Shown: positions 16,561 through 52,814, numbered from the stretch's first letter. The stretch is 64,000 nucleotides of DNA from Schmidtea polychroa (GCA_044892525.1 CM097886.1:21204001-21268000); one strand, 5' to 3'. Notes: generated by a model from the sequence alone, not told the origin. A program made the numbers and translations.

Positions 16561-16568
16561 TTTTTAGC

Positions 16569-18602
16569 GTAGCACGTCAATTGCGCGGGTCCAACTGCAC
16601 GGTAGGCAATTGCGCGGGTAGTCAATTGCGCGGGTAGTCAATTGCGCGGCCGTCAATTATTAAATGGGCTTAATTATTATTAAATCAATTAATTATTAGT
16701 AAATAAATTATTAAATGGGCTTACAGTTGCTATGAGGCCTCAATTTAGGCCGTCAGGCCTGCCTAGCCATCGAGCTGCTACTGTCAAGGCGGGTATATAA
16801 TGCGAGTGTTTTTTCGCAATTGACGAAATTGTAGTCATGTCTTTAGAGTTTGGTAAAAGCGAGAGGGGCAACAAAACTTTAATTTATAAGAATTTCGAAT
16901 ACGTTAAGGAATGCGAAAATGTGTGTGGTACTACCGCATGGCGTTGCAGGTTCAACAAGAAGTTCAAATGTAAGGCTCGAGTTGTAACCGATGACAGTAA
17001 AGTTGTTTGTGAGAAACAACCGGAACACACGCACAGTGGTAACGTCGCAACAGCAAAAGCACGAAAGGCGGTAGGAGAGATGAAAGAAATGATTGGCGCG
17101 TTGATGGCTACACCTAGTTCCTCACAGGCGTCCGTTTCGGCGGCACTAGATGATCACGTGCTGATGGCTTTGCCTAAACGATCGTTGCTGACTAGGACAT
17201 TGCAGCGAAAGCGTCAGAAGATTACGAAAGAAACCAACAACGGTCAAGAGCTACCGGCTATTCCAGGCGATCTTCGTTTTGATATACCTGACCGATTCAG
17301 GCATATAATTCTGTACGACTCAGGACCAGGTGATGATCGAATAATCCTGATGGGCTGTTTAGAGCTTCTAGATGGATTGGCTCGTGCTGATGTATGGATT
17401 GCCGACGGGACATTCAAAGTCGTCCCGAGCGTTTTTTTTCAACTGTACAGCTTCCATTTCAACTTCTCTTCCGGTATCAACCCTGCTGGTCTATACTGCC
17501 TCATGACGAATAAGACGGCTGAAACCTACGGACGCGTTTTCACCGAAATTCGCAACCTCGTTCCTTTGGCTTCTCCAACGACAATTTTGATAGACTTCGA
17601 GAAAGCGGTGATGAACACAATGAGTCTATCGTACCCGTACGCAAGAGTCACAGGTTGCTATTTTCACCTCTGTCAAAGTGTTATTCGTAAGGTCAACGAG
17701 ATAGGACTAAAGATTACCTACGAGAGTAACGATGAGGTCCGTGGGTACGTTCGATGTCTTTCTGCACTGGCGTTTGTTCCCCCCGATGATGTGGTGGAAG
17801 CTTTCGAGTTGTTGGTTGAAACAATGCCTGCCGATATCGATCATCTAGAAGAGCTCACGTCTTTCTTTAAGTTAACGTATGTCCGCGGACGTCGACGTCG
17901 AGGACGGGCCGAAGTGTATGCTGCAGCGATGTTCCCATTATCTATCTGGAATCAGCACGCCGGTGCATGCGAGGGAATTGCAATAACAACCAACTCAGTT
18001 GAAGGATGGCATCACGGCCTTCAGACACTGTTCCAGTGTAGCCATCCGACTGTCTGGACGTTCATGGCAGGATTAGAACGGGACATGAATCTACAAAAGT
18101 CAAAGTACTTGCAAGGGGCAACCGGTTTGGTGCAGCCGTCTCGTAAGACGTATCGTCAACTCAACGATCGCGTTGTAGCAGCTGTAGCAGCTTATGGTCG
18201 TACGGACATTCTGACATATTTACGTGCCATTTCACATCTGTCGCACTGTTAATTAACATTGATATTCATACTTACTAGTATTATTTAAATTGGACTTTTA
18301 TATTGATATTGATATTTGTTTGATTAATTTTGTGATAGTTTATTTAGGTAATATATAACTCACTTGATTTTGCAAAAGTGTGATTTTTGGTTATTTGTGA
18401 CGAAAAATAATGAAATAAATACCATATAATTATAAATAACAAAATTTGGAAACAAGGGAAAAATGTAATTAACCACCTCATCAGTTTACTATCCGCGTAG
18501 TTGGACCCGCGCAATTGACGCACCCGTAATTGACTACCCGCGCAATTGACGTCCGCGCAGTTGGACCCGCGCAATTGACGTCCGCGCAGATGACATGGTT
18601 TC
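16569..18602 (+). mobile_element. Apparently intact Mutator-like (FLYWCH-MULE) DNA transposon, 2034 bp, 9-bp TSD GTTTTTAGC
   Basis: TSD at 16560-16568 and 18603-18611. TIRs built from tandem GTCAATTGCGCGGG units, inverted at the two ends. One uninterrupted transposase ORF. Confidence 0.92.
16837..18252 (+). CDS. MULE transposase with N-terminal FLYWCH zinc finger (471 aa)
   Basis: F-x-Y...WRC...C...H-x-H FLYWCH motif; DGTFK, IDFE, GCYFHLCQS, TTNSVEGWH motifs; ATG to TAA intact. Confidence 0.95.
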   Translation: MSLEFGKSERGNKTLIYKNFEYVKECENVCGTTAWRCRFNKKFKCKARVVTDDSKVVCEKQPEHTHSGNVATAKARKAVGEMKEMIGALMATPSSSQASVSAALDDHVLMALPKRSLLTRTLQRKRQKITKETNNGQELPAIPGDLRFDIPDRFRHIILYDSGPGDDRIILMGCLELLDGLARADVWIADGTFKVVPSVFFQLYSFHFNFSSGINPAGLYCLMTNKTAETYGRVFTEIRNLVPLASPTTILIDFEKAVMNTMSLSYPYARVTGCYFHLCQSVIRKVNEIGLKITYESNDEVRGYVRCLSALAFVPPDDVVEAFELLVETMPADIDHLEELTSFFKLTYVRGRRRRGRAEVYAAAMFPLSIWNQHAGACEGIAITTNSVEGWHHGLQTLFQCSHPTVWTFMAGLERDMNLQKSKYLQGATGLVQPSRKTYRQLNDRVVAAVAAYGRTDILTYLRAISHLSHC

Positions 18603-24886: not shown

Positions 24887-26977
24887 CAACGGTGGGCAAA
24901 TGCGGCTCTTCGTTGAGTAAACTGCGGCTCATTGATAATTGAATTTTTGATAATTGAATTTGAAAATTGAATTCGATTTTTTTATTTTGAAATTTTTTCA
25001 ACTGAATTTTTAAAAAAAAATTTTTTTGTTGCAATTGTATTTTCATAAATGTTAAAAATTAACGAAACATTGTTTTTCACATTTTACTGCTTTTTAAAAT
25101 TATTTTGTAGTAGGCGGCGCTTTGTTATAACAACGAGAGAGAAGCAATGAAAATAAATTTAGTGAAATTTAGTGAATTTTGATTAGTTAGTATTTTTGTT
25201 TGTACAATATTGCGGTCGTTTGTATATTTTAGTATAGTTTTCTATTCGTGTTTTTTGAAAAATTTGGTAAGAAGATTTTTTATGAAGCATTTTAAAATTT
25301 TAAATTAATTAAAATTAAATTTATGTCTTTTTATTATTTTGTTTAAATTTTAGTAATATAAGTTATTCAAATTTATTATTACAATGACCTCAGAAAACAT
25401 CAAAAAACGAAAATACAAACAAGAAAATAGAACTTTTCAAGAAGAATGGACAGAGAATTGTACATTCAGTTTAGCTCTCGACGAGTCTACTGACATTCAG
25501 GATGTTCCACAATTAGCCGTTTTTGTCCGCTTTGTATCTTCTGACGTAAAAGTTAAGGAAGAAATTTTAGACCTAGTAGCTCTTAAAGAAACAACTCGTG
25601 GTATCGATGTCAAAACTGCGCTTGATGTAGTGATGGACAAGTTTGAATTGGCGTGTGATAAACTTGTAAGTGTTGCGACAGACGGAGCGCCTGCAATGAT
25701 GGGAAAAATCAAGGTCTCATTGGTCTTTTAAACAGAGATCCAAATATTCCTCATTTCTTATCTCTTCAATGCATAATTCATCGCGAGCATCTCATAGCGA
25801 AGTACTTTAAATACGAAAATGTGTGGAAGATTGTTTTGAAGATTGTGAATTTAATTAGAACAAATGCCAAAACACATCGTCAATTTAAAAACCTTTTAGA
25901 AGAATTAAGATTAAATGATGAAACAGATGAATTGCCCAATGATGTCTCCTTATGGTGTATTGTTAGATGGCTGTCAACTTACAATGTTTTGGACCGTTTT
26001 GTGGAACTCCTAAATCCTATCATAATATTTACCAAAGAAAAAGGAATAGCATACCCAGAATTAGAAAATGAAACTTGGCTTTCTGACTTAATGTTCCTTA
26101 CAGACATTATGGAACATTTGCAAATATTAAATTTGGCTTTACAAGGAAAAGAAAAGATAATTATTGATTTGTCACAAACGTTATTTAGTTTTGAAGCTAA
26201 ACTTCGGCTTTTTGTGAACGATCTTAGGTCGAAAATATTTAATCATTTTCCACGAATAAAAGCTAATAAAATTGATATCACAGAAAAAAAAGTAAACGAA
26301 TACAGTGAAAAATTGCAAGAATTGCAAGCGGATTTCAAATGTAGGTTTGAAGATTTGAAAAGTTTTAAATCTACATTTGCATTTTTTGTGAACCCATTTA
26401 TTTGTGATATTATTGAAGATGGATTTCCAATTTCTGAAGTAATACTTGTTAAAAAAGCGGTTGGGGAATTGGAGTTATTAGATATGAAAGAGGACCAGGC
26501 TTTGCAAATGCACCATAAAGTTACTTCTATAATTGAATTTTGGAAACTCGTACCAGAGGCAAAATATCCACACTTAAAACAAGCTGCTTGCCGTCTAATT
26601 TCAATTTTTGGTACAACATATTGTTGTGAATCTTTGTACTCCACAATGAAGTTCGTGAAGTCGAAATATCGTTCAGAGTTGACCAATCAGCATCTTACAG
26701 AATTGCTGCGAACAGCTTTAACAAAGTATACACCAAATTTGAAAGATTTGACCAAAAGTCTTCGTTAATTCAAGAAATTTTATTACTTTTTATTAATGGA
26801 TTTTTATTATATTTTATGTTTGTTACTTAAATTTTGAAATAATTGTTTTTAATAGCGTTTAAGTCTTTTTTAATCAAATTAATGAAATAAAAAAAATATG
26901 TAGTTCACTATGGTGGCTCTTTAAAAAATAAATTTTCGGAAAATGTCTCTCATTGAACTCATGCGTGCCCACCCTTG
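24887..26977 (+). mobile_element. Internally deleted Buster-type hAT, 2091 bp, 8-bp TSD CTATATAC
   Basis: TIRs CAACGGTGGGCA / TGCCCACCCTTG; TSD at 24879-24886 and 26978-26985. Confidence 0.92.
25384..26768 (+). pseudogene. Buster/GTF2IRD2-like hAT transposase with N-terminal deletion and frameshift
   Basis: RTFQEEW joined directly to SLALDESTD; VATDGAPAM, CIVRWLS, IFGTTYCCESLYSTMK motifs; split into ORFs 25384-25731 and 25821-26768. Confidence 0.9.
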
Positions 26978-27236: not shown

Positions 27237-28434
27237 CTAATCCAAGCGAATTTCTAATTTACGTGAACTTTTTGCTAGTTCATCTAGAACTGCATCTGTA
27301 GAAATCGCGACATTACGATGAATATTAAGTAACGATAATCCATTTAACCTATCTTCACTCATTGTGTTGCGTAAATACGTTTTAAGTCGTCTCAATGTTG
27401 AAAAAGATCGTTCACTGCTTGATGTTGTAACTGGTAGTGTAGCAAAAATTTTAAGTAATTTTCGAACAGTTGGGAAAATTGAATCGTCGCATGCTAAAAA
27501 TGCATTATGAGCATTTTTTGGTGTATTCGAAGAATTTAAAACATGGCACCACCATAGCTTCAGCTCACCAATGCCCTCAACTATGCTACAGTTTGTAATA
27601 CTATTATATTTTTCTAAAAGGATTTTTGCAGAATTTTCATGCTCTGATGAAAAGTTTTGTTCATTTGGCAAAAGACACATAAAACTTTGCAATATATTTT
27701 TATGTTTCAGAAACCGATCGTGAATTTGCATCTTTGTAGAATCCACAAAAGGAATGAAGATGGCAATATGATAATACTCTTCAGGATTTTCAACTACAAT
27801 GTTGCAGCGATGAACTTGTCATCCGGTTAGACGAGGAATTCGTATTTCTACATTAAGTTCGTCACATATTTTCTTGACGTCACTGAAAATGGTATTAAAT
27901 TGCTTTTCTATTTCGCGCCGTGTTTCATCTAGCACCTCTTCAACATTTTCTGCCAGTCCCATTGCAGCGGCCAGATCAAGATTTATTGTTTGTAGTAATC
28001 GACTTAGCGGTAGGGTTATAGCAAAAACCTTGGCAAGAACATGAAGCGATACTTGAAATTCTGTACTCCTAATAACAGATAGAAGCTGAATTGCAGAAGA
28101 AGAAGTTGTTTTGTCATCCCATTCAGAAATAATTTCCATTGCAGAAATTGCAGCTTTTTGAAGCTCCATAAAAACTAGGACGGACTCGTGGCGTTGAATC
28201 CATCGTGTGGGACATATTTGTTTTAGTCGCGTTGCTGTTGATTCAGATTCCATTTGGTCTATACAATTTTTTAGCACGGCTTGGCGCTTTGGGGTGTTAA
28301 AAAAATTGTACACACTTCCGAGTGATCCTATACAATTTCGTATAAATGAAATTTCACAAGCATCAGAAATAGCGAGGTTTAAACTATGAGATGCAGTGTA
28401 CATATAAAGCTAGCTTATTTTCATCACTAACATA
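27237..28434 (-). pseudogene. hAT transposase, C-terminal half (downstream of the 15.4-kb insertion)
   Basis: H-(C)-ASHSLNLA, CPTRWIQRH, TLPVTTSSSERSFSTLRRLKTYLRNTMSEDRLNGLSLLNIH. Confidence 0.92.
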
Positions 28435-29389
28435 AGTAGGTAGTTAGGAACCTACGGCAGCAATGACCCCCCCCCTGCTGCCGTAATTTTTTTTTGCGTT
28501 CAGGGATTTTTGGTCCAAATTTTTTTTTCAGACTATAGTGAGGGGGTCTCGATGGTCCTGGGATTTTCAATACAAAAAGGCGGTCTCAATAAAAAAGCCA
28601 AGGATTTTTCAGAAAAAATTTTTTTCAATACAAAAAGGCGGTCTTCAATAAAAAAGCATGGTAATTTAAGGTCTCAGGATATTTTCAATAGAAAAAGGCG
28701 GTCTTCAATAAAAAACAGTGGTAATTTAAGGTCTCAGGATATTTTCAATACAAAAATCCGATTATCATTAAAAAAGCATGGATTTTTCTAGGTCAATTCA
28801 GGTGGGTCTTCTTGGTCCTGAGAATTTCAATAGAAAAAGGCGGTTTACACTAAAAAACGTGGTAAATTTTTTAAAATAAAGCAAATTATGGTCCTAAAAA
28901 ATTAAATTATGGTCTAAAAATTGAATTACAGTAAATTATCGGCTCAGATTTTTCAATTAAAGTAAATTATGGTCCAGATTTTAAAATTAAAGTAAATTTA
29001 GGTTCTAAAAAATTAAATTAAAGTTAATTAAGGTCCAAATTTTAAAATTAAGTAATCAAAGTAAAAAATTTTAAATAAGTAAATTATAGTAATAATTTTT
29101 AAATAAGTAATGTAATAAGTAAATTAAAGTAAGATTTTTAAATTTATATTACAAAAAGTTGAAATAATAGAAGGTGTTTGAGAATTGAAATTTTTTAATG
29201 AAAATTTTTATGAAATATTTTTCAATGATAATTTTTAATGGAAATTTTTATGGATTAATTTTTTAAGTAATTTTTAATGGAAATTTTTATGAAATAATTT
29301 TTTTAAGTAACTTTTAATAGAAATTTTAATGAAATATTTTTCAATTGTTATTTTTATGAAATATTTTTCAAAGACAAATTTTAATAATA

Positions 29390-29950
29390 ATTCAACAACA
29401 AACCAACAACTTAGTACCAACAACCAGTAACTTACGAACATGTATTTACAACGGGATACCTACAACCAGCTAAAACAAGTTACCTGATACCAACTACTTA
29501 CAACCCACAACAACCAGGTACTAAGCATTATTAACCAACTACTAAGTACCTACAACCAACTAGCTACCAACTACCAACTACTTACAACCCACAACAACCA
29601 GGTACTAAGCATTATTAACCAACTACTAAGTACCTACAACCAACTAGGTAATAGATACCAAGTACTTACAACCGACAACAACCAGGTACTAAGCATTAAT
29701 TACCAACTACTAACAACCCACAACAACCAACTACTAAGTACCTACAACCAACTACCAAGTACTATCAACCAGCTAACAACTAGATACCAAGTACTAACAA
29801 CCCACAACAACCAACTAACTACCACCTACCAAGTACATACAACCAACATCAACCAGGTACTAAGCATTAATTACCAACTACTAAGTACCTACCAAGTACA
29901 AGGTACCTAGTACTAAGCACTGTTAACTAGATACCAAGTACTTACAACCA
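29390..29950 (+). repeat. G-poor CAACCAACTACTAAGTACC-type low-complexity tract (mirror ~41170-42060; second pair ~31190-31690 and ~39480-40000)
   Basis: Strongly strand-skewed degenerate repeats, inverted in the opposite arm. Confidence 0.85.
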
Positions 29951-32900
29951 CATAAATTATTGGTTAAATAGGTAAATTAATGTTTAATTTTTAAATTAAC
30001 TAATCAATGATCTAAAATATTAAAGTTTAGGATGAAAGTTTTCAATGTTAATTTTATATGCAAATCTTCGTCAATTAATCAATGACCACATGAAATTATT
30101 AGTTAAATATGAAAATAAGGGTTATAATTAGTTGTTTAGTAAATTATGGTGTAAAATTAAGTAATAAAGGATAAATAGGTAAATTAAGGATAAGTAAATT
30201 AAAGTTAAAAATTTGAAATAAATAAATTAAGGTTCAAAATTTTAAATTAAAGAAAACAATGGTTTAAATTTTATATTAAAGCTAAATGAGAAAATAAAAG
30301 TAATAATTTTTAAATAAGTAATGTAATAAGTAAATTAAAGTAAGATTTTAAATTTATTATCAAAAGATTGAAAAAACCACCAACTTTTTTGAGAAATGTA
30401 ATTTTTAATGAAAATTTAAATGGAATTTTTTTTTAAGTTAATTTTAAATGTAAAATTTTTTAAGTTAATTTTAATGAAATAGTTTTCAAAGTNNNNNNNN
30501 NNNNNNNNNNNNNNNNNNNNNNNNNNNNNNNNNNNNNNNNNNNNNNNNNNNNNNNNNNNNNNNNNNNNNNNNNNNNNNNNNNNNNNNNNNNNNNNNNNNN
30601 NNNNNNNNNNNNNNNNNNNNNNNNNNNNNNNNNNNNNNNNNNGTTACTAAATATTTTTAACTAGGTGCTAACAAATACTTTCAACATGATACCACGTACT
30701 AACTAACTCTCAAACATCCAAGTAAAAACAACTAACTACTTACAATCAACTAAATATTCTTTATTGTATTTTATGAAATGCTTTTTAAATTAATTTTTTA
30801 TACAGCTTCTATAATAATTTTATTTACAATCAGTATAAAAAACTTTTCAAAATGTCTAAATTTAACAAAAATGTTGATTTTAGCCCAAAAAATAAATAAT
30901 TGTCAACTCATCACCACGTGGAATTCAAAATAATTTAAATTACAATGAAAGACTAATGAATTATAATTTACAAAACATTCTTCTTTTAAATGATAACTAC
31001 TGACTTATTATTGCAAAGTAAAAATCTCATTCAATAAATACTTATTGTTGATCAGTTTTATTATATATACTCTGAGTTTATCCGACAGGATGTTTTGACC
31101 CCCTAAGGGTACAGGTCGTAAGGGTACTGGTCGTAAGGGTATTAGTCGTAAAGGTACTAGTCGTAAGGGTATTGGTAACACTCAACCCCCCACATACCCA
31201 TTAACTAGCTACTAAGTACTAACAACCAGCTAACAACTAGATACAATGTACTATCAACCAACATCAACCAGGTACTAAGCATTATCAACCTACAACTATA
31301 TAACAACAATCAGTAAACAACACTGTACCAACTACCAAATATAAGATACCAACAACATAGTATCATCAACCAGTAACTTACGAACATGTACTAACAACCA
31401 ACAATCAAGTACTAACAAATTGATCTTTAAAAGAAAATCCTCTTCACTTGCAATATTGATCACACTCAATACCACCTACTCATTAATTAACAACCATGTA
31501 CTAACAACTAGGTTTCAAACAACTAAATACTAAACACTTACAACCAGATACCTACAACTAGTTACTAACAACCACCATCAAAACCCATCGAGAAATTAAC
31601 ATATATCAACTATAGAACAACAATCAGTAAACAACTTAGTACCAACTACCAAATACAACAAACCAACAACTTAGTACCAACAATCAACTAACCACTCATA
31701 AAAATAATAACAATTAAATACAAAATATTCTTCATCAAATACAATATCTTCTTATCAAAATCTAAAAAGTCAACCAACTACTTACAACCAACAACTATGT
31801 ATTAACAAATTGATCTTTAAAAGAAAATACTCATCACTTGAAAAATTGGATGGAAAATTAATTGAACTCAAGGCATCAATAACTTGGTAAAAATTGATTA
31901 AATAATTGTAAAAATTTAAATTATTCAAAATAAATATCATAAAAATTTAATTAATGGACAAAAAAGAACATTAAATTTGAATCATTAATCATCCAGTAAA
32001 TAAAAAAATACTGATCATTCAAGTTAATATGAATCAACTAAGATAATAAATTAATGAGATAAGATTTAGTAAATAATTGATTTAGATTGAATAAATTAAT
32101 TGAAATAAAATTAATTTTAATTATTTTTTTGTAAAAGTAATACATGTACTCAAAATGATTGACTGATTGCTCAATATATTCAAAAAATCAGTATAAATTC
32201 ATTACAATTATCAAAGTCATCAATCTACAATAAAAATAATTATCATTAAATTCCAAAAGAGACTAGATAACTAATGATAACATCTAATAAACCAGTAAAT
32301 TCATTTAAATGACAATAATTGGTATAGCCAAGTGAATTCTCCAATAAAATCATCTAAAAAGAATCATTTTCCCTGAAATATCTCCGTCTTTTAAGATTAG
32401 TATCTTATCGATAAGTACTTGTTAAAGATCATATATTCACCTCAAACTAAAAAGATTCCTTAAAATCCCTTAAATGACTATATTTCAACCCTTAATTCGT
32501 ATTATTACAAATATCATCTAAAAAGCATCAAATTTCATTGAAATAACTCTATCCTTAAAGATTGATATTTTAATGATAAGTACCCGTAAAAGATCATATA
32601 TTCCCCTCAGACTAATAAGATTGCTTAAAATCCCCTGAAATGACTATAATTCTAACTTTAATTCCTATTATCATACATATTTCACTATTGATAAAACCAG
32701 TTATAATTAAATTTTTGTTAATCACTGTAAATTTTTGTAAATCACTGTACTCGAAATTTAAAATAAATATAACTGACTAGGTCACATTGAAAGATTAAAT
32801 TTATCCATTCAATAAAATATATTTCTTCAAATGGTCAACTTTTGTCGTTGTCCGCCTAAATAAAGATAAAAATAATTTAAAGTTGATATCAATCCCAATT

Positions 32901-33069
32901 ATCTGTAAAGTTTTCATTGTCAAAACCAAGTAAATCGATCATTATCCCTACTTAATAAAACATTGTTCTAAATTAATTTATTGTGCATTAATCACAACCT
33001 AATAAAACGATATAATTATTATTGATTCATAACTGACTAATTGCAATTTCCCTTAAAACATTGATATTT

Positions 33070-33340
33070 TACCAACATACTTAAAAAATCATATTTTTCC
33101 CATCTTAACCCATCTCTCATTAAATTAAATCGACTATATCTCCCTTACAATGATATATTCCCATCTTAACCCATCTCTCATTAAATTTAACCGACTATAT
33201 CCCCTTAAAAAGATCATATTTTCCCACCTTATCCGATCCCTCATTAAATCTAAACCGACAAAATCCCATTTTATCCGATCTCTCACCAAATATTTCTACC
33301 CTTTTAAACATCTATCCGATTATATCCCTTATTTTCCCTA
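33070..33340 (+). repeat. ~57-bp degenerate tandem repeat (CCCATCTTAACCCATCTCTCATTAAAT...), mirror ~37770-37960
   Basis: Units at ~33098, 33160, 33223. The 63-aa ORF 33150-33341 is repeat-derived. Confidence 0.75.
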
Positions 33341-34089
33341 AAGATTCCACCCACTTGAGCCTTTTAATATAAATCAATCCTCTTAAAATCCTCAGAGAAC
33401 TTCAAAAATATGACTTTTAATTAATTGTTATAGGAACCAGACATATAATAAGAGCCCACTAAAAGATCAAAATTCACTAAAGTTTTCTACAAATATTTAC
33501 CATCAAATACTGGAGATGATATATATTGTTTGATCATAATTCTTCAGCTATTCAACCAATCATTTTCAAGCACTATCAGCAAACTAAATTTCAGTTTCCT
33601 ACAATAATTATCAAGTAAATTTAAAGTCCTTGATAAAGTTAACTGGTTTCTTAGCTTATGTTTTTTAAAGATCATCAATGTGTAAATATTCTTAGAAAAT
33701 TATTGAAAACATTATTTAGTCAAATACATTACAAAGTTATCATCAAAAATCACTTAATTATTAACCCAATTGTCAATGAAATTAATTTTTATTTAAAAAC
33801 TATTCAATAAAATACCACTAATTATCAAGAAATTAATTAAATTTATCAATTAAATTTATCAATTAAATTTATCACCATTAAAACTTTTAATCAGTCAACA
33901 TGAAATTCTTAGAAAATTATTCAATATCCTCATCAAAATTTATCCTATCACTTGATTATTGTACAAACTTTAATTATTAACCTCATTGAAAATAATTTTT
34001 ATTTAAAATTAAAAAACAAGTCAATAAAAATACATCCAATTATCAAGAAATTAATTAAATTTATTTTAGAATTAACATTAAATTATTAA

Positions 34090-34310
34090 AAATTCACGAA
34101 AATGATAGAAATCCACAAAAATTACAAATATTCACAAAAAATTATGGAAATTCATGAAAATGATGGAAATTCACAAAAAACGATAAAAATTCACAAAAGT
34201 GATAGAAATCTGCAAAAATCAAAGAAATTCACAAAAATGATAAAAATCCACAAAAAACGATAAAAATTCACAAAAATGATAGAAATTCACAAAAATGATA
34301 GAAATTTACT
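34090..34310 (+). repeat. GAAATTCACAAAAATGATA-type minisatellite (shorter mirror ~36915-37025)
   Basis: Repeated ~20-bp units; copy number differs between arms. Confidence 0.8.
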
Positions 34311-35119
34311 TGAATATTTACTAAAACCATCAACTTTAAAAATTATCAATGCCTTAAACAACAAATTTGCCTAAATAATCATTCACATAAAAGCATTAAA
34401 TACCTTAAAGACTAATACCCTTACGACATGTTGAATGTGAGTAGACCCTTGTGAGCAATACCCATAGGGGGACAGAATATTTTGTCGGATAAACTCAGAG
34501 TATATATTAATTACCTCATTCAAATTTTTCATTGAATTAGTAAAATTATCATAAATTTCGATAAAAATTCTAAAGTGGTAAGCAATTGTAGGATAAAAAG
34601 ACAATTATTCTTTAAACTATGATAAAATTAACAATGAAGGTGGTAAGAATCTTCATTCAAGTGAGGAAATTATTCATTACTCGATGATAAATTCAAATGG
34701 GTGAAAATAATTGGTAGAATAATTCATTAATGGAGGTAAATACTGAGAATGGGCATAGATAAGAAGAAGGTTGATAAGAATGGAAATATATTAATTGAAT
34801 TTATTTAAAATTCTTTCATAAAATTCATAAATTTAATAAAAAAAAAACTTTTAAAACAAATATTTGTGGGGATATTTTTAGTAAATAATTAATAAAAATC
34901 GGCGGAATATTAGTGAATAAATATCAAGGGTGGGGGTTATAGGCGAATAATTAATTGAAAATCGGGAGGTTATAAGTGATTAATTAGTGGAAAATCGAGG
35001 GGATACAAATGATTAAATAGTGGAAAATTGGGGAATATAAGTGAGGAGGATATATAATTTAAACTATTTTATTACATAACAGGCCGTAACTATTTTATTA
35101 CATAACAAGCTGTGAATGG

Positions 35120-36235
35120 TATTTGAATAAGAAATATGGAGTAGGTCTTTTTTTTTAAAATTTTTGACTAAATTAAATTCTAAAATAATAACTAATTATT
35201 ACTAAAATGTTTTAATTTACATTATGTATTTTAAAAACAATTATCATAAAAGAAAATAATATATATATTACCCTTTTCATTCAAAATAAGTTGAATATTC
35301 AAATATAAGTCTTAGAAAATATTTAATATAAGGTATTTTATTGAGAATTATTGATTAGGTCTTTTTTTTTTAATTTTTGAATAAGTACTTTAATACCTTA
35401 ATAATTTAAATGTTTTGATTTACACTAAATAATTTCTAAATCAATTACCCTTTTCAATCAAAATAAGTTAATATTCAAATATAAGTCTTAGAAAATATAA
35501 ATTTTATAAGTTTTTCAAATTTTCAAATAATGTAAATAAGAAATTAATCTATTACCAGTTATATACTTTAAAACTTATTGATGGAATAAGAAAAAAGTTT
35601 TGTTGTATAAGTCCTTTAATATTGTAATAATTATTTATTAATAAATTTATAATTTTACGTTAAATATTTCATAAACAATTATCATATTATTAATTATATT
35701 ACCCTTTTTAATCAAATAGATGACTTTTATAAAATACAATTAAAATTAAATACTTTAAACTAAATTTAAAAATATAAATTTTATAAGTAAATGTAAATAA
35801 GAAATTAGTGTATTAGCAGTTATAGACTTTTTAAACTTATTTATTAGGCAATAGATAATAAAAGTTACTTTTTTTTTCAAAAAGTCCTCTAATATTGTAT
35901 TCTATTTATTATTAAATTTACAATTTATACTAAAAAAATTCAATTTAGAAAACAATCATCATAATATTAAATATGAAACTTCAATCAAAATAAGCTAATA
36001 CTCAAATATGTGTCTTATAAAATACAATCAAAATTAAATACTTCACAAAATTTAAGTAAAGTTTTTAAATTCTCAAATAAATGTTAACAAGATATTAATT
36101 TATTAATCATTATAGACTTTTTAAACTTATTATTGGAATAAAGCAATAGAATGATATTCAAAATATATACAATTTTAAAATATAATTAAAATTAAATTAC
36201 ATACTTTAAATATTTGGTAAAATGTTGATAAAATA
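35120..36235. repeat. Central spacer of the palindrome, made of degenerate direct repeats (~270-bp period)
   Basis: TAAATGTAAATAAGAAATTA...TTATAGACTTTTTAAACTTAT recurs at ~35530, 35790, 36080; ATAAGTCTTAGAAAATAT at ~35305 and 35480. Confidence 0.65.
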
Positions 36236-39200
36236 CCTTTCACAGCTTGTTATGTAATAAAATAGTTTAAATTATATATCCTCCCCCAATTTTCCACTAT
36301 TTAATCATTTGTATCCCCTCGATTTTCCACTAATAAATCACTTATAAACCTCACCCCGATATTTAATCAATTATATTCCGCCGATTTTGATTAATAATTC
36401 ACTTAAAACATTCCCCACAAATATTTGTTTTAAGATTTTTTTTATTAAAGTGATAATTTTTAGAAAATAGTTGCAATACATCCATTCTTATCAACCTTCA
36501 TCTTATCTATGCCGCTTCTCAGTATTTACCTCCATTAATGAATTATTCTACCAATTATTTTCACCCATTTGAATTTATCATCGAGTAATGAATAATTTCC
36601 TCACTTGAATGAAGATTCTTACCACCTTCATTGTTAATTTTATCATAGTTTAAAGAATAATTGTCTTTTTATCCTACAATTGCTTACCACTTTAGAATTT
36701 TTATCGAAATTTATGATAATTTTAATAATTCAATGAAAAATTTGAATGAGGTAATTAATATATACTCTGAGTTTATCCGACAAAATATTTTGTCCCCCTA
36801 TGGGTATTGCTCACAAGGGTACTACTCACATTCAACATGTCGCAAGGGTACTGATCATTTAATGCTTTTATTTGAATGATTATTTAGGCAAATTTGTTTA
36901 AGGCATTCATTGATAATTTTTGTGAATTTTTATCGTTTTTTGTGAATTTCCATCATTTTCATGAATTTCCATAATTTTTTGTGAATATTTGTAATTTTTG
37001 TGGATTTCTATCATTTTCGTGAATTTTTAATAATTTAATGCTAGTTCTAAGATAAATTTAATTAATTTCTTGATAATTGGATGTATTTTTATTGACTTGA
37101 TTTTTAATTTTAAATAAAAATTATTTTTAATGAGGTTAATAATTAGAGTTTGTACAATAATCAAGTGGTAGGATAAATTTTGATGAGGATATTGAATAAT
37201 TTTCTAAGAATTTCATGTTGACTGATTAAAAGTTTTAATGGTGATAAATTTAATTGATAAATTTAATTAATTTCTTGATAATTAGTTGTATTTTATTGAA
37301 TAGTTTTTAAATAAAAATTAATTTCATTGACAATTAGGTTAATAATTAAGTGATAGAATAAATTTTTGATGACTTTGTAATATATTTGACTAGATAATTT
37401 TTTTCAATAATTTTCTAAGAATATTTACACATTGATGATCTTTAAAAAAACATAAGCTAAGAAACCAATTAACTTTATCAAGGACTTTAAATTTACTTGA
37501 TAATTATTGTTGGATATACAGAAATTTAGTTTGTTGATAGTGCTTGAAAATGATTGGTTGAATAGCTGAAGAATTATGATCAAACAATAGATATCATCTC
37601 CAGTATTTGATGGTAAATATTTGTAGAAAATTTGAGTAAATTTTGATCTTTTAGTGGGCTCTTATTATTTGTCTGGTTCCTATAACAATTAATTAAAAGT
37701 CATATTTTTGAAGTTCTCTGAGGATTTTAAGAGGATTGATATATATTAAAGGGCTCAAGTGGGTGAAATCTTTAGGGAAATTAAGGGATATAGTCGGTTA
37801 GATGTTTAAAGAGGTAGAAATATTTGGTGAGAGATCGGTAAAGATGGGATATTGTCGGTTAAATTTAATGAGGGATGGGTTAAGATGGAAATATATCATT
37901 GGAAAGGAGATATAGTCGATTGATTTTAATGAAGGATGATGTTGGTCAAATATCAATGTTTTAAGGGAAATTGCAATTAGTCAGTTATGAATCAATAATA
38001 ATTATATTGTTTTATTAGGTTGTGATTAATTCATTGTATATTAATTTAGATTTATGTTTTAGAACAATGTTTTATAAAGTAGGGATAATGATCGATTTAC
38101 TTGGTTTTGACAATGAAATCTTTACAGATAATTGGGATTGACTTCAACTTTAATTTATTTTTATCTTTATTTAGGCGGAGAATGACAAAAGTTTAGAAAT
38201 ATGGACTTAAAACATCGACTAATGAAAATTGATCTTTAATCGAAGAAATTTATCGGGTGATTTTAATTAGTAATTAAATCGGTTGAATATTGGTAAAAAT
38301 GATCATTTGAAGAAATATATTTTATTGAATGGATAAATTTTATCTTTCAATGGGACATAGTCAGTTATATTGTACAGTAATAATTATTTTAAATTTCAAA
38401 TACAGTGATTTACAAAAATTTAATTAAAACCAGTTTTATCATTCGATTTTATAAATTATTTAGGGTTAATGACCAATTTATTTTACATGTTTTAAAAGGA
38501 AATATTCCTGATAATATGAATTAAAGTTAGAATTATAGTCATTTAAAGGGGATTTTAAGCAATCTTATTAGTCTGAGGTAAATATATAACCTTTTAAGGA
38601 TATTTATCGATAAGATACTAATCTTAAAAGATAGAGATATTTCAGGGAAATTTGATGCTTTTTAGATGATATTTGTAATAATATGAATTAAGGGTTGAAA
38701 TATAGTCATTTAAGAGATTTTAAGGAATCCTGTTAGTTTGAGGTGAATATATGATCTTTAACAAGTACTTATCGATAAGATACTAATCTTAAAAGATAGA
38801 GATATTTCAGAGAAAATGATTCTTTTTAGATTATTTTATTGGAGAATTCACTTGGATATACCAATTATTGTCATTTAAATGAATTTACTGGTTTATTAGA
38901 TGTTATCATTAGTTATCTAGTCTCTTTTGGAATTTAATGATAATTATTTTTATTGTAGATTGATGACTTTGATAATTGTAATGAATTTATACTGATTTTT
39001 GAATATATTGAGCAATCAGTCAATCAATTTGAGTACATGTATTACTTTTACAAAAATAATTAAAATTAATTTTATTTCAATTAATTTATTCAATCTATAT
39101 CAATTATATACTAGATCTTATTTATTAACTTAGTTGATTCACATTAACTTGAATGATCAATATTTTTTTATTTACTGGATGATTAATGATTAGAATTCTT

Positions 39201-40555
39201 TCTTGTCTATTAATTACATTTTTATGATAATTATTTGGTATATTTTGAATAATTTAAATTTTTACATATTTTTTTAATCAATTTTTACCTAGTTATTGAT
39301 GCCTTGAGTTCAATTAATTTTCCATCCAATTTTTCAAGTGATGAGTATTTGCTTTTAAAGATCAATTTGTTAGTACATAGTTGTTGGTTGTAAGTAGTTG
39401 GTTGACTTTTTAGATTTTGATAAGAAAATAGTCTATGTGATGAAGAATATTTTGTATTTAATTGCTATTATTTTTATATGTGGTTAGTTGATTGTTGGTA
39501 TTTGGTTTCTAATTGTAAGTACTTGCTAGCAGGTAACTGGTTGTTAGTAACTAGTTGTAGGTTGATATTTGTTAATTTCTTGACGGGTTTTGATGGTGGT
39601 TGTTAGTATGTGGTTGTAAGTGTTTAGTATTTAGTTGTTTGAGAGTTAGTTAGTACTTGGTAAATAGTTAATTGGTAGGTGGTGGTTGAGTGTTACCAAT
39701 ATTGCAAGTGATGAGTATTTGCTTTTAAAGATCAATTTGTTAGTACTTGATTGTAAAGACATGTTCGTAAGTTACTGGTTGATGATACTATGTTTTTGGT
39801 ATATTGTACTTGGTAGTTGATACAGTGTTGTTTACTGATTGTTGTTATATAGTTGTTGGTTGATAATGCTTAGTATCTGGTTGATGTTGTTTGTAAGTAC
39901 TTGGTATCTAGTTGATAGCTGGTTGTAAGTACTTGGTATCTAGTTGTTAGCTGGTTGTTTTTGGTTGTTAGTACATAGTTGGTTGTAGGTGGAGGGGTTG
40001 AGAGTTAGCAATACCCTTACGACTAGTACTCTTACGACTAATACCCTTACGACCTGTACCCTTAGGGGGTCAAAACATCCTGTCGGATAGACTAAGAGTA
40101 TATATAATAAAATGAATCAACAATAAGTATTTATTTAATGTCATTTTTACATTGCAATAATAAGTCATTAGTAATCAATTAAAAAAAGATTGTTTTGTAA
40201 ATTATAATTCTATAGTCTTCCATTGAAATTTAAATTATTTTGAATTCCACGTGGTGATGAGTTGTCAATTATTTATTTTTTGGGCTAAAATCAACATTTT
40301 TGTTAAATTTAGACATTTTGAAAAGGTTTTTCTACTGATTGTAATTAAACATATTTTTGAAGACAGATAAAAAATTAATTTAAAAAGCATTTCATAAAAT
40401 ACAATGAAGAATATTTAGTTGATTGTAAGTAGTTAGTTGTAAGTATGTGGTTGTTTGAGAGTTAGTTAGTACGTGGTATGATGTTGAAAGTATTTGGTAC
40501 TTATTTGTTAGCACCTAGTTAAAAATATTTAGTAACCGATTGTTGGTAACTGTTG

Positions 40556-40556
40556 A

Positions 40557-40621
<65 letters not shown>

Positions 40622-40636
40622 CATTATTATTATTAT
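40556..40636. repeat. (ATT)n microsatellite in the right arm
   Basis: Its mirror position in the left arm coincides with the N gap 30493-30642. Confidence 0.95.
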
Positions 40637-42959
40637 TCCATTTAAATTTTCATTTGACTTTGAAAACTATTTCATTAAAATTAACTTAAAAAATTTTACA
40701 TTTAAAATTAACCTAAAAAAACTTCCATTTAAATTTTCATTAAAAATTACATTTCTCAAAAAAGTTGGTGGTTATTCAATCTTTTGATAATAAATTTAAA
40801 AATCTTACTTTAATTTACTTATTTAGCTTTAATTTAAAATTTGAACCATTGGATACTTAATTTTAAATTTTGAACCTTAATTTACTTATTTAAAATTTTA
40901 AACTTTAATTTACCTAATTATTCTTTATTTCTTAATTTTACACCATAATTTACTAAACAACTAATTATAACCCTTATTTTCATATTTAACTAATAATTTC
41001 ATGTGGTTATTGATTAATTGACGAAGATTTGCATCTAAAATTAACATTGAAAATCCCTGAAAATTTTCATCTTAAATTGACTTTAACTTTAATATTTTAG
41101 ACCATTGATTACTTAATTTTAAAATTTGGACCTTAATTTACTTATTTTACCAATAATTTCATGTGGTCATCTGGTTATAAGTACTTGGTATCTAGTTGAC
41201 AATTCTTAGTACTAGGTATCTTGTACTTGGTATCTTGTACTTGGTTGTTAGTTGTTGGTTTGTTGTTGGTACTTGGTATCTAGTTGACAGGGCTTAGTAC
41301 TTGGTATCTGGTAGCTAGTTGTTAGCTGGTTGTTGGTTGTTAGTACTTGGTAGGTGATTGTAGGTACTTAGTAGTTGGTAATTAATGCTTAGTACCTGGT
41401 TGTTGTTGGTTGTAAGTAGTTGGTAGGTGGTAGCTAGTCGGTTGTTGGTTGTAGCTTGTTAATGGGTAGGTGGTTGTATGTACTTGGTATCTAGTTGTTA
41501 GTATCTAGTTGTAGGTATCTGGTTGATGTTGGTTGTAAGTAGTTGTAGGTATCTGGTTGTAAATACATGTTCCTAAGTTACTGGTTGTTGTCGGTTGTTA
41601 GTACTTGTATCTGGTACCTAGTTGGTTGCTTGTTTTTGGTTGTTAGTACTTGGTAGGTGGTTGTTAGCTGGTTGTTGGTACTTGGTATCTAGTTGACAGG
41701 GCTTAGTACTTGGTATCTGGTAGCTAGTTGTTAGCTGGTTGTTGGTTGTTAGTACTTGGTAGGTGATTGTAGGTACTTAGTAGTTGGTAATTAATGCTTA
41801 GTACCTGGTTGTTGTTGGTTGTAAGTAGTTGGTAGGTGGTAGCTAGTTGGTTGTAGGTTGTAGCTTGTTAATGGGTAGGTGGTTGTAGGTACTTAGTAGT
41901 TTGTAACTGGTTGTTAGTAACTAGTTGTAGGTACTTGGTATCAGGTAAGTGGTTGTTAGTAACTATTGGAAGTACTTGGTATCAGGTAACTGGTTGTTAG
42001 TAACTAGTTGTTAATACATGTTCGTAAGTTACTGGTTGTTGGTACTAAGTTGTTGCTTTGTTGTTGAATTATTATTAAAATTTGTCTTTGAAAAATATTT
42101 CATTAAAATTTCTATTAAAAATTACTTAAAAAATTAACTTAAAAAATTATTCCATAAAAATTTCCATTAAAAATTACCATTGAAAAATATTTCATAAAAA
42201 TTTTCATTAAAAAATTTCAATTCTCAAACACCTTCAACTTTTTGTTAATAAATTTTAAAATATTACTTTAATTTACTTTAATTTACTTATTTAAAAATTA
42301 TTACTTTAATTTACTTATTTAACTTTAATTTAAAATTTTTGACCATTGATTACTTAATTATAAAATTTGGACCATTATTTACTTTAATTTAATTTTTTAG
42401 AACCATAATTTACTGTAATTGAAATATTTGGACCATAATTTACTTTAATTGCAAAATCCGAGTCCATTAATTACTGTAATTCAAAAATTTGAACCTTAAT
42501 TAACTTTAATTGAAAAATTTGGACCATAATTTACTTTAATTGAAAAATCTTAGCCCATAATTTACTGTAATTCAATTTTTAGACCCATAATTTACTTTAA
42601 TTCAGAAATCTTAGCCCATAATTTACTGTAATTTAATTTTTTAGAACCATAATTTACTGATATTGAAAAATTTGGACCATAATTTACTTTAATTTTAAAT
42701 TTTGAACCTTAATTAACTTTAATTCAAAAATTTGGACCTTAATTAACTTATTTGAGCCCATTGATAACTTTAATTCAAAAATATGAGCCCATAGTTTACT
42801 TAAATTTAATTTTTAGAACCATAATTTACTGATATTGAAAAATTTGGACCATAATTTACTGTAATTCAAAAATTTGGACCATAATTTACTTTAATTTAAT
42901 TTTTTAGGACCACAATTTATTTTAATTGAAAAATTTACCACGCTTTTTTATTGAAGACC

Positions 42960-43730
42960 GCCTTTTTGTATTGAAAATCCCAGGACCATCGAGACCCCCT
43001 CACTATAGTCTGAAAATTCCATGCTTTTTTATTGAAGACCAGCTTTTTGTATTGAAAAAATTTTTTTTGTATTGAAAATCCCTGGATCAATCGAGACCCC
43101 CTCACTATAGTGTGAAAATTCCATGCTTTTTTATTGGTAGTCGGATTTTTGTATTGAAAAAAATTTTTTTGTATTGAAAATCCCAGGATCATCAAGATTC
43201 CCTCACTATAGTCTGAAAAATCCTTGGCTTTTTTAGTGTAGACCAGCTTTTTGTATTGAAAAAAAAATTTGTATTGAAAATCCCAGGACCATCGAGACCC
43301 CCTCACTAAAGTCTGAAAATTCCATGCTTTTTTATTGAAGACCAGCTTTTTGTATTGAAAAAATTTTTTTTGTATTGAAAATCCCTGGATCAATCGAGAC
43401 CCCCTCACTATAGTGTGAAAATTCCATGCTTTTTTATTGGTAGTCGGATTTTTGTATTGAAAAAAATTTTTTTATATTGAAAATCCCAGGATCATCAAGA
43501 TTCCCTCACTATAGTCTGAAAAATCCTTGGCTTTTTTAGTGTAGACCAGCTTTTTGTATTGAAAAAAAAATTTTGTATTGAAAATCCCAAGACCATCGAG
43601 ACCCCCTCGCTATAGTCTGAAAATTCTATGCTTTTTTAGTGGTAGTCGGATTTTTGTATTGAAAAAAAAAATTTGTATTGAAAATCCCAGGACCATCAAG
43701 ACCCCATCACTATAGTCTGATAAAAAAAAA
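42960..43730 (+). repeat. Eight ~101-bp subterminal units with a ~303-bp higher-order period
   Basis: CACTATAG-like cores at ~43001, 43103, 43204, 43304, 43406, 43507, 43608, 43708; units 2-4 resemble units 5-7. ORF 42935-43408 is spurious. Confidence 0.9.
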
Positions 43731-43834
43731 TTTGGACTAAAAATCCCTGAAAGCAAAAAAAAAATTACGGGAACAAAAAAAATACGGGAACAGGGGGGGG
43801 GGTAATTGTTCCTGTGGGCTACTAACTACCTACT

Positions 43835-44940
43835 AACATATTTTTGTGCCCATGAAATCGTCCACTCATTGCTGAAACTCCATCATAACCCTGTCCAATC
43901 ATGAATCACGCATAGTCTGCATTAAAACATTTGCAAGACCCTTACCAGTCACATCAGTAACAGGTACAAACTGTAAAAAATCTTCTCTGATGTTATTCGA
44001 ATCAGAATCTACATAACGAAAGCATAATGAAAATTGTTCAATACCAGCTATATCACTAGTTTCGTTTTATTTTAGCAACAATTGAACGAACAACTATTAT
44101 GTTGCATGCACTTATAATTTCGTTTTGAATTCTTGGACTCAAATAAGTTGCATTTTTTCCTGGGACCTCTAGATGATTTTTAAGTATTTCATCTCCACAA
44201 TGGACGTAAAAGTACTCGAAAATTTCCATCATTTTCCTCTGGATTATTGTTGGATTAGTGTTAAAGTGCCAGAGTCTCTATGTCCTCTTAAAGGCAAACC
44301 TTGACGACCGCAAAAAAGTATAGTCTCTATTATTGGAGTTAATCTACTCCGATTTTCTATTATTTGTTTTTTAGACCGGAGTCCAATGCCAACACTACAG
44401 GTTCCATTCTATGCTCGGAAATTGCTTTACGATTTTGTGCGTGAAGAACGGCTGTTTTATGGTACTCAGTTTCTTGATGTTTGTTGAAATTTTCTATAGC
44501 ATCTTTCCAGTTTGAGAAAGCAGTTTCGCAGAAAATAATACACAATACTTACAGAAAGCACCATCCAAAGGTTTTGAGTATACTAACCATTTCCACCTAC
44601 TAAACCAGCTGTATTGAAACTTTAAATTACGTTTTCCACTAACTGGGAATACAAATTTGTCGTCAGGATACCAAACGTTTTTCAACAAAAATAATCTTTT
44701 TTCATCGTCGTATTGGTTTTTTCCAATAAAATTACTAATATCATTAATAATTACATTTGAATCTGATCCTGATGGAGACTCAAATTCACATCCCCTTAAT
44801 GAAGCTGCAGCACTATCATTTTCACTAGGAACAGGAACAACCTGATCAGCTGTTCTTTCTAAATCACTTGTTTTAGATTTTTTAAAATAATTTGTTAAAA
44901 TAGAATTTTTTAATTTTCTTTTCTCGTTATTCATTTTCAT
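43835..44940 (-). pseudogene. hAT transposase, N-terminal half with TTF-type zinc finger
   Basis: FQYSWFSRWKWLVYSKPLDGAFCKYC, FSNWKDAIENFNKHQETEYH, CGRQGLPLRG, DETSDIAGIEQFSLCFRYV, GQGYDGVSAMSG; frameshifts present. Confidence 0.92.
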
Positions 44941-45325
44941 AAAATATTATTTAGAATTAACAAATTTTAAAATTAACATTAAACAGAAATTAGACTTTCT
45001 CAACAGAAAACAAATTTTAAAATGAATAGTAAGAACAAAAATTAGAGTTTCAAGTTCAAGCGAAAACAAAAAACAAAGTAAATTGAACAAAGCAACACTA
45101 CTCGTGTGAATTTTTTTTAAAAAATTNNNNNNNNNNNNNNNNNNNNNNNNNNNNNNNNNNNNNNNNNNNNNNNNNNNNNNNNNNNNNNNNNNNNNNNNNN
45201 NNNNNNNNNNNNNNNNNNNNNNNNNNNNNNNNNNNNNNNNNNNNNNNNNNNNNNNNNNNNNNNNNNNNNNNNNNNNNNNNNNNTAAGGTAACCCTCAGTA
45301 ACCCACCCCCCCCCTGCGTACGCGC

Positions 45326-51077: not shown

Positions 51078-52814
51078 TTTTACACGGTAGATACGTTCGA
51101 ACGAAAATCGTGTAAAAAAAGACATGTTAACCATAGTAAAATTGAGGATGTGTTCTACAATTATAGAAAACCGTGTAAAATAGAAAAAGGAACCATTAGT
51201 TGTTCTAAAAAACCGTGCAAAAAAAAAGTAAATCTTGAAACCATATTATATAAGTTTCAGAAAATATAATCCATACATGTTTTTATTAAAAATAAATAAT
51301 AATAGTAATTTTAGTCCATAAGTAAAAAAAAATTAAATTTTAGTTCATAAATACATATAAATTTAATTCTAATTGGAAATATAAGTCTTATTTAACAACT
51401 AATATTTATTATCACTACTTTATAATAAGCGTGCATGTTTATTATAGACTGGCTTAAATTGCTTTACTCACTTAGGTCTACCAAAAGAAGTGATGTTAGG
51501 AGGCAAAAATACCAACTCAATATTTGGATGGTATAGTACAGGATGGCTGGGTGCATTATCGACGAGTAAGAGTACTTTGAATTGAAGACCCTTTTGTTCC
51601 ATATATTTTTGAACTTCAGGAACGAAGCATTCTTGGAACCATTTTGTAAAGAATTTTCCTGTCATCCACGCCTTTCTATTAGCCATCCAATGGACTGGCA
51701 GCTGTTTAATATTCTTGCTTTTCAAAGCTCGAGGCATTAATGACCTGTTGATTAACAGTGGCTTTAAAATCTTATCTCCAGATACGTTACTACACAATAA
51801 AAACGTTACTCGATCCTTAGCGACTTTGAAACCACCACCAGATTTTTCTGATTTAGCAATGTAGGTCCTGGAGGGCATTTTTTTCCAGAATAATCCCATC
51901 TCATCGGCATTAAATACCTGGTCTGGCGTATAACCACCGTTTTCAATTATTTTTATGAATTTTTCTGGAAAACTCTTTGCAGCATTTTCATCTGCTGATG
52001 CTACTTCTCCTTTTATTTTTACATTATGAAATGCTTGCCTTTTTAGGAATCCTGTCAGCCATCCTTCACTTGCATTAAATGTCATTGTCTTCATTGCATT
52101 GACACTTGTTGGTGGCTCCAATTCCCGAAGTCGTTTGTATATTCTAAGGGCCTTTTTCTTTATAATTTTTCCATCTATAGGTATTTTTTTCTGCAGCAAA
52201 TCCTCTATCCAAACCACTAAACTTTTTTCCATCTTCTTCGAGATAATATTTCGGCTATATGACGATGCTTTGGAACTGATGTTCGATCCAGAAATTACTG
52301 ATCGTCGAATGGAATCCTCACTTTTTTTATGGTTCTGATAGTCGCTTCACTTAAACTAAAATCTTTGCCAACAGATGTGGGACCTACGCCTCTCTCAAGA
52401 CTGTCTAAGATTTTTATTTTAGTTTCCAAAGAAATCGCTTGTCGCTTCCGATTATTTTTCGTTGGTTTAGGTATCTTATTATTCGGCTATAATAAAAGTT
52501 AAAATAAAAACACTTAATAAAAAATTTTTAAATCTAAAAAAATAACATTACCAGTTTATTAAAATTTCCTTTAGTAAAATAAAATAATAACAAAAAAATT
52601 TTAAATTTTAAAAAAATAACATTACCAGTTTATTAAAACTTTCTTACGTAAGTAAAATTTTCTAAAAAATATTTGTCAAAATAACAATAAAAACAAAATT
52701 AAAACATAAAATTTTTTTGGAAATAGTGTTAAACCGAATATTTCGTGCAAAAAAAGAAGATTTGTTCCTTTTTTGTGGACCGTGTTATTTCAAAATCGTG
52801 TAAAAAAAGAGTTG

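What the first reader, a model, noticed from the sequence alone, without database searches (positions are those of the whole stretch)
28435..43834. 15.4-kb gene-less giant palindrome that integrated with a Polinton/Maverick signature
Seen: 13-bp termini AGTAGGTAGTTAG/CTAACTACCTACT and an exact 6-bp duplication AACATA. Removing the element rejoins a hAT transposase (GQGYDGVSAMSGRFHG...YV|SDENKLALY...ASHSLNLA), which fixes both boundaries. Inside, ~6.7 and ~7.6 kb arms mirror each other around a ~1.1 kb spacer, and I found no ORF with pPolB, integrase, ATPase, protease or capsid motifs. Known: 6-bp TSDs with 5'-AG...CT-3' ends mark Polintons, whose TIRs are usually hundreds of bp to about a kb around a gene block. 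Inference: this is a non-autonomous, fold-back Polinton derivative in which inverted repeats have replaced the whole gene block, mobilised in trans. Its length falls in the usual Polinton range (15-20 kb), so it may be a satellite or defective-interfering passenger held at capsid packaging size.
Basis: partly seen in the sequence, partly recalled or inferred. Interest (0 to 1): 0.88.

Follow-up and report, generated by a model that had tools for sequence, protein, structure and literature searches.

The report
Gene-less mirror-image satellite of a Polinton
This 15.4-kb stretch with no genes and two mirror-image halves is one of many such copies that share their ends with a virus-like Polinton transposon in the same animal genome; they likely borrow Polinton enzymes to move, and their length close to that Polinton's hints, untested, that they travel in its particles.

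Summary
Confirmed. Window 28435-43834 is a gene-less palindrome: 6.7- and 7.6-kb arms, a 1.1-kb loop, 13-bp ends and an AACATA duplication. It sits in a young hAT copy whose sisters show the empty site. It belongs to a large family: 3,163 matches to its 13-mer end and 2,325 to a variant; 33 of 41 end pairs fetched have an exact 6-bp duplication. A ~17-kb Polinton (pPolB, integrase, ATPase, protease, double-jelly-roll capsid) shares the end modules but not the inner arms; its integrase is split in every copy examined. Sisters often have identical arms while differing ~5% from each other. This copy's arms already differed when it inserted, so it did not fold back here. Gene-less palindromes and polymerase-only inverted dimers mostly fall at 75-105% of helper length (14 of 16; 6 of 8), and one end variant gives 18 of 19 pairs at 15.5-17.9 kb. 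Another end variant scatters from 8 to 18 kb, so packaging-size selection is about even odds. I found no published description in seven searches. This scan noted the same family before, in this genome and in other genomes.

The parts
28429..28434 (+). left copy of the 6-bp target-site duplication AACATA
   Evidence: empty site in sister hAT copies
28435..28447 (+). left 13-bp terminus, Polinton-type 5'-AGT end
28435..35098 (+). left arm: terminal 60-, 30- and 13/40-bp repeat modules shared with the helper TIR, 14/21-bp repeat block, then non-coding inner arm
29488..29892 (+). 21/45/84-bp repeat block, absent from the helper copies compared but also found beside a Polinton ORF relic at window 15880-16570
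30643..35098 (+). inner arm, 4.4 kb, non-coding, shared by the gene-less family; ~510 bp of it recurs as filler in polymerase-only elements
35099..36227 (.). central loop, 1,129 bp; its ~890-bp core forms the loop of most sister palindromes
36228..43834 (-). right arm, inverted copy of the left arm with longer terminal arrays
42317..43720 (-). 30/61-bp and 101-bp tandem arrays; the 101-bp array region is 71-88% identical to the helper's terminal arrays
43822..43834 (-). right 13-bp terminus
43835..43840 (+). right copy of the target-site duplication AACATA
27237..28428 (-). 3' half of the interrupted hAT transposon copy (Dimer_Tnp_hAT, E 9e-13)
43841..45100 (-). 5' half of the interrupted hAT transposon copy, frameshifted

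Best explanation
This is a gene-less, palindromic member of a many-copy family that shares its end modules and 6-bp target duplication with a ~17-kb Polinton of the same genome, and it is likely copied and inserted in trans by Polinton polymerase and integrase. Shown: the structure, the family, the shared ends, the 6-bp duplications, the helper gene set, and arms that are often identical within a copy though copies differ by ~5%. Inferred: after excision the element is replicated from its ends by protein-primed pPolB; the displaced strand folds into an almost complete hairpin, which renews the duplex origin and evens out the arms; recombination between free copies makes mosaic arms such as this copy's; a Polinton integrase inserts it. 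Inferred at about 45%: passage through the helper capsid keeps it, and polymerase-only inverted dimers, near helper length.
For: 3,163 and 2,325 end matches against controls of 27 and 9. Exact 6-bp duplication, never longer, in 33 of 41 fetched end pairs, chance expectation 0.03; 6 of 6 loop-picked sisters that had both ends, of 8 fetched; 15 of 20 further pairs. Gene-bearing copies of 17,077, 17,120 and 16,575 bp with the same 6-bp duplication and an end one base different. They carry a pPolB match (PF03175, E 1.4e-30), rve, A32 ATPase, C5 protease and TBP matches, and a capsid protein that folds as a double jelly roll (pLDDT 92.6; iridovirus/PBCV-1/mavirus capsids, E to 4e-16). The own arm is the nearest match (ties included) in 14 of 24, 11 of 21, 10 of 17 and 13 of 17 copies over four segments. 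Length: 14 of 16 gene-less palindromes and 6 of 8 polymerase dimers in the census lie at 75-105% of helper length and none above; outer and inner lengths compensate in one end variant (rho -0.46 to -0.64 over four anchors, permutation p 0.002-0.047).
Against: The integrase of the same-ends lineage is split by in-frame stops in all 7 copies read, and none of the 150 best genome matches has an open frame over 212 aa (the query favours split copies). The only long uninterrupted integrase frame seen belongs to a second family at 72-75% identity with different ends, so the donor is not identified. The inner arm has no source in the helper. In 35-75% of copies per segment at most, not all, arms are evened out; this copy's are not. 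Length compensation is absent in the census (rho 0.02-0.30) and in all 39 copies pooled (rho -0.11), was found in 1 of 4 subsets tried, and the copies are related. A second end variant gives 30 pairs, of which 8 are under 12.7 kb and 5 over 24 kb (counted by hand; mostly unclassified). Monomers of 5.8-8.2 kb also insert with duplications. About a dozen census pairs spaced over 21 kb were not fetched. No particle, free DNA or expression data.
Confidence: 0.82

Rival explanations
1. Same satellite, but it spreads inside the nucleus without particles; its length is inherited from a founder of about 16 kb and trimmed by deletion, and inverted dimers arise simply because the polymerase turns back at internal hairpins. 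This rivals the size step only.
For: Left-skewed lengths in the census (10.9-17.7 kb), wide scatter in one end variant, monomers that insert, no compensation in the census. Four of five dimers examined have a 270-310-bp element with both termini at the axis, a ready turn-back point.
Against: Three different contents (non-coding, polymerase-only, a 15.2-kb chimera) converge on the helper's size. Arrays that vary by kilobases still leave totals at or under ~18.0 kb in fetched un-nested copies, and one copy offsets short outer arrays with a duplicated inner block.
Confidence: 0.4
2. A Foldback-type cut-and-paste transposon (Galileo, FB, Tetris kind) with long repeat-built TIRs, moved by an ordinary DDE transposase.
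For: Modular, internally repeated arms look like Foldback elements (resemblance recalled, and search listings).
Against: The same ends and 101/30/13-bp modules flank Polinton gene blocks; duplications are strictly 6 bp; no transposase ORF was seen inside the fetched copies, though only Polinton proteins were used as queries and no DDE search was made.
Confidence: 0.05
3. A one-off inverted duplication made at this locus after a Polinton remnant inserted.
For: Arm identity is highest near the centre (97-99%). Five sisters do sit in local inverted duplications of flank.
Against: The host hAT differs from sisters by 1.6-2.3% whereas the arms differ by 3-9% in unique segments and end in different terminal variants. 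The loop and layout recur in sisters with their own duplications.
Confidence: 0.02
4. Assembly artefact from fold-back reads.
For: Five of about 60 sisters have flanks mirrored at 99.8-99.9% for 1.3-8.5 kb, which may be artefact. No long read spanning this copy was available.
Against: Arms differ by many substitutions and indels, and the two flanks are distinct, collinear halves of one hAT copy with the expected duplication.
Confidence: 0.01

Closest known systems
Polinton/Maverick elements (PMC8097293, passages and section 7 read)
   Same: 5'-AGT...ACT-3' ends, 6-bp duplication, total length near the reported 16,862 +/- 1,678 bp, end modules shared with a resident gene-bearing copy.
   Different: No genes; inverted repeats of 6.7-7.6 kb against 46-1,447 bp reported for vertebrate Mavericks; the end is AGTAGG, not (AGT)2.
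Non-autonomous Polintons of Repbase (recalled; the name Polinton-1N1 appears in one search listing)
   Same: Polinton ends without the replication genes, moved in trans.
   Different: I could not read their structure (Kapitonov and Jurka 2006 not held; Repbase not searchable). A whole-length palindrome of helper size was not found described.
Helper-dependent (gutless) adenovirus genomes (PMC4189039, passages)
   Same: Only cis ends plus non-coding DNA; genomes under 75% or over 105% of wild-type length rearrange, and 15-kb vectors are packaged as direct and inverted dimers.
   Different: Engineered, not integrated, no natural family; packaging is shown there and only inferred here.
AAV snap-back defective genomes (PMC8235507, abstract)
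   Same: Palindromic sub-genomes that keep one end region; the polymerase-only dimers here resemble them.
   Different: ssDNA parvovirus with hairpin priming; transient, not an amplified germ-line family with its own non-coding core.
Butterfly polintons with ~2-kb gene-bearing TIRs (10.1101/2025.02.07.637071, passages)
   Same: Polinton inverted repeats enlarged well beyond the usual size.
   Different: Those TIRs duplicate hexon and adenain genes around a gene block; here arms are 3-4 times longer and non-coding.
Foldback transposons (Galileo, FB, Tetris; search listing only; details recalled)
   Same: Long TIRs built of tandem repeats, frequent gene-less copies.
   Different: DDE cut-and-paste partners and other duplication lengths (recalled); ends here belong to a Polinton.

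Membership tests
Polinton/Maverick, autonomous | 6-bp target-site duplication | tested here: met
   AACATA; empty site in sister hAT copies
Polinton/Maverick, autonomous | 5'-AG...CT-3' termini with TIRs | tested here: met
   13-bp perfect ends; AGTAGG rather than (AGT)2
Polinton/Maverick, autonomous | encodes pPolB and rve integrase | tested here: not met
   no ORF over 85 aa, no Pfam match; it is not an autonomous member
Polinton/Maverick, autonomous | encodes ATPase, protease and jelly-roll capsid proteins | tested here: not met
   absent from the element; present in the same-ends relative
Non-autonomous Polinton derivative | shares termini and TIR modules with a resident gene-bearing Polinton | tested here: met
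   end 13-mer differs by one base; terminal arrays 71-88% identical
Non-autonomous Polinton derivative | many dispersed copies, each with its own 6-bp duplication | tested here: met
   33 of 41, 6 of 6 with both ends, 15 of 20
Non-autonomous Polinton derivative | a working integrase donor with the same ends | tested here: inconclusive
   integrase split in the same-ends lineage; uninterrupted in a second family
Defective-interfering or satellite genome | length within the helper's packaging window | tested here: inconclusive
   14 of 16, 6 of 8, 14 of 15 within 75-105%; another variant scatters
Defective-interfering or satellite genome | packaged in helper capsids | not testable with these tools
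   needs particle DNA
Defective-interfering or satellite genome | interferes with helper replication | not testable with these tools
   only the 16:2 ratio of duplication-confirmed gene-less to full-gene copies in the census
Foldback DDE transposon | DDE transposase partner with the same ends | tested here: inconclusive
   partners seen between these ends are Polinton genes; no dedicated transposase search was made

The most novel reading that the evidence does not exclude
A natural gutless satellite of an animal Polinton virus: gene-free palindromes, polymerase-only inverted dimers and capsid-only halves form a population of defective genomes that pass through Polinton particles before entering the germ line, so capsid size holds them at helper length. 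Their lengths would be a genomic record that animal Polintons move as virions.
Probability: 0.42. Interest if true: 0.86.

Novelty: new variant of a known kind. Interest (0 to 1): 0.66.

Why it matters
Whether animal Polintons move as particles, and how they copy their DNA, is largely inferred (PMC8097293 abstract states particles had not been observed; search listing). A gene-free family that needs only the ends, keeps its arms alike and stays near helper length gives two direct handles: arm-matching patterns test the hairpin replication model, and a length ceiling tests packaging. If the first 19 Mb of C1 are typical, several hundred copies make up 1-2% of this genome (rough scaling), and gene-based Polinton surveys would miss them.

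Tried and rejected
Coding relics in the arms: none by tblastn, Pfam or Rfam. Inner arm as helper internal DNA: only ~60% AT-rich noise. A sister with the same AACATA duplication (C1:7233971) has an unrelated flank, so it is a coincidence. Sequence search of the capsid protein against PDB found nothing; the fold search did. hmmscan of the full pPolB ORF listed only Endonuclease_7; the pPolB call rests. Length compensation failed in the census and pooled sets. Two long pairs (26.8, 24.1 kb) held nested insertions of ~13 and ~10 kb; the 20.9- and 27.3-kb pairs were not dissected. No RNA holder listed; run X7 laid nothing; contigs did not bridge the hAT-element junction. The C. elegans PALTA/PALTTTAAA lead (recalled) gave no link to Polintons in the one paper read. 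Literature searches without a description of such elements; subscription journals, Repbase reports and supplements were not seen and may hold one.

Full report
Observation. The element spans window 28435-43834 (15,400 bp, 25% GC). Its ends match for exactly 13 bp and AACATA flanks both sides. Self-alignment gives arms 28435-35098 and 36228-43834 at 69-87% gapped identity around a 1,129-bp loop. The outer arms are built of tandem arrays of 101/60, 30, 13/40 and 14/21 bp. The longest ATG ORF is 85 aa; read-through frames of the inner arms and loop match no Pfam family (0 of 12 frames) and Rfam gives nothing. 150 bases read N.

Boundaries. The flanks are two halves of a frameshifted hAT copy. That hAT family is young: 43 matches at 95-100%. 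Four of five sisters print the empty site with AACATA once; the fifth aligns contiguously across it. The duplication is therefore real.

Family. The 13-mer occurs 1,582 + 1,581 times in the 781-Mb genome (control 13 + 14) and a variant 1,158 + 1,167 times (control 5 + 4). I fetched 41 regions with adjacent inward-facing ends from the first 19.2 Mb of contig C1, leaving out about a dozen pairs spaced over 21 kb. 33 of 41 have an exact 6-bp duplication and none a longer one (chance 0.03). Of the 8 others, 3 match at 5 of 6 bases, 1 has the duplication displaced by three terminal bases and 1 has mirrored flanks. The 33 comprise 16 gene-less palindromes (10.9-17.7 kb), 8 inverted dimers of the polymerase end (9.4-16.3 kb), 2 full-gene copies, 4 gene-less copies with the inner arm once (5.8, 7.1, 7.9, 12.6 kb), one 8.15-kb copy with capsid and integrase genes but no polymerase, one 15.2-kb chimera and one 26.8-kb nest. 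The loop search found 1,724 candidates and scored 40 at 86-100%. Most sister palindromes carry the same ~890-bp core as their loop. Rough scaling gives several hundred gene-less copies.

Helper. Copies of 17,077, 17,120 and 16,575 bp have 6-bp duplications and ends one base from the finding's. They hold pPolB, rve integrase, A32 ATPase, C5 protease and a TBP-like gene, two probable penton genes (assigned by position and recall, no database match) and a 407-aa protein whose model (pLDDT 92.6) matches double-jelly-roll capsids. The finding shares with them only the terminal 1.5-2 kb; the 4.4-kb inner arm has no source there, although ~510 bp of it recurs in polymerase-only elements. One caveat matters: the integrase of this lineage is split by in-frame stops in all 7 copies read, none of the 150 best matches has an open frame over 212 aa (a query biased to split copies), and the one long uninterrupted frame seen belongs to a second family. 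The integrase donor is unknown.

Arms. Over four inner segments, a copy's own other arm is its nearest match in 14 of 24, 11 of 21, 10 of 17 and 13 of 17 copies, often at 100%, while copies differ by about 5%. Other segments are as far apart as unrelated copies, a mosaic. This fits replication through a folded single strand plus recombination among free copies (inference; adenovirus panhandle conversion recalled, not found). In the finding the arms differ by 3-9% in unique segments (median 6% over 20 windows), against 1.6-2.3% between its host hAT and sisters. The arms were already different at insertion, so this copy did not fold back in place.

Length. With a helper mean of 16,948 bp (four copies, one lacking an exact duplication), 14 of 16 census palindromes and 6 of 8 polymerase dimers lie at 75-105% and none above. 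For one 30-bp end variant all 58 matches were listed: 18 of 19 pairs measure 15.5-17.9 kb; all 18 are gene-less palindromes, 14 with exact duplications; the 36.6-kb pair was not fetched. In 15 of these, outer and inner lengths compensate. Against this: no compensation in the census or pooled set, a result from 1 of 4 subsets of related copies, and a second variant (100 of 152 matches listed) with 30 pairs of which 8 are under 12.7 kb and 5 over 24 kb. Adenovirus genomes outside 75-105% rearrange, and half-size gutless vectors are packaged as inverted dimers (PMC4189039, passages); vertebrate Mavericks vary ~10% around 17 kb (PMC8097293, passages). Packaging selection is thus plausible, about 45%.

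Comparison. It fails membership of autonomous Polintons (no genes) and meets the tested features of a non-autonomous derivative. It works like a gutless adenovirus or snap-back genome in layout; packaging and interference are untested. Papers seen: PMC8097293 (passages, section 7), PMC4189039, PMC6431247, PMC11296320, PMC5499653, PMC6873666, 10.1101/2025.02.07.637071 and 10.1101/2024.01.15.575659 (passages), PMC8235507 (abstract). Seven searches found no description of helper-sized gene-less palindromic Polintons; Repbase and the 2006 paper could not be read. Earlier notes of this scan describe the same family in this genome and similar ones in other genomes; they are not independent evidence.

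Verdict. Real, and a new variant of a known kind. Interest 0.66: the family is striking and makes the virion question testable from genome data, but the boldest step is not shown.

Noticed in passing
window 1-1339 and G000:C2:21194001-21204000: Right end of a second gene-less family member; no matching left end was found in the 20 kb fetched.
   Followed up: partly
G000:C2:183352234, C3:75427408, C3:113518233, C3:125702797, C1:9121571: Palindromic copies without a duplication whose flank is mirrored on both sides for 1.3-8.5 kb at 99.8-99.9%: element-linked inverted duplication or assembly error.
   Followed up: partly
G000:C1:11868922, 14263195, 14588190, 226591771 (centres); C2:21188637: A 250-310-bp mini element with both Polinton ends sits at the axis of inverted dimers, so each half plus the mini is itself an ~8-kb element with two ends.
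   Followed up: partly
L044:5639-6787 and 150 genome matches: The abundant, 99-100% identical helper lineage has its integrase split into two ORFs yet inserts with perfect duplications.
   Followed up: partly
G000:C1:68848-95655: A second Polinton family also forms a ~13-kb polymerase palindrome (arms 99%), nested in a gene-less copy.
   Followed up: partly
G000:C1:8291964-8300115: 8.15-kb element with ATPase, integrase, capsid and protease genes but no polymerase, complementary to the polymerase-only halves.
   Followed up: partly
L044:3891-4367: The helper encodes a TBP-like protein (PF00352, E 3e-16); noted before by this scan.
   Followed up: no
window 15880-16570: Relic of a Polinton 125-aa ORF (48%) between the same 14/21-bp repeats found in the element's arms, a hint to the origin of that block.
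   Followed up: partly
window 60267-60661: Relic of Polinton genes next to the capsid gene.
   Followed up: no
window 16801-18252, 25662-26768, 51468-52346: MULE/FLYWCH, hAT and Tc5/pogo-type transposase ORFs.
   Followed up: no
G000:C1:1827339-1856000: A full-gene Polinton inserted inside a gene-less palindrome.
   Followed up: partly
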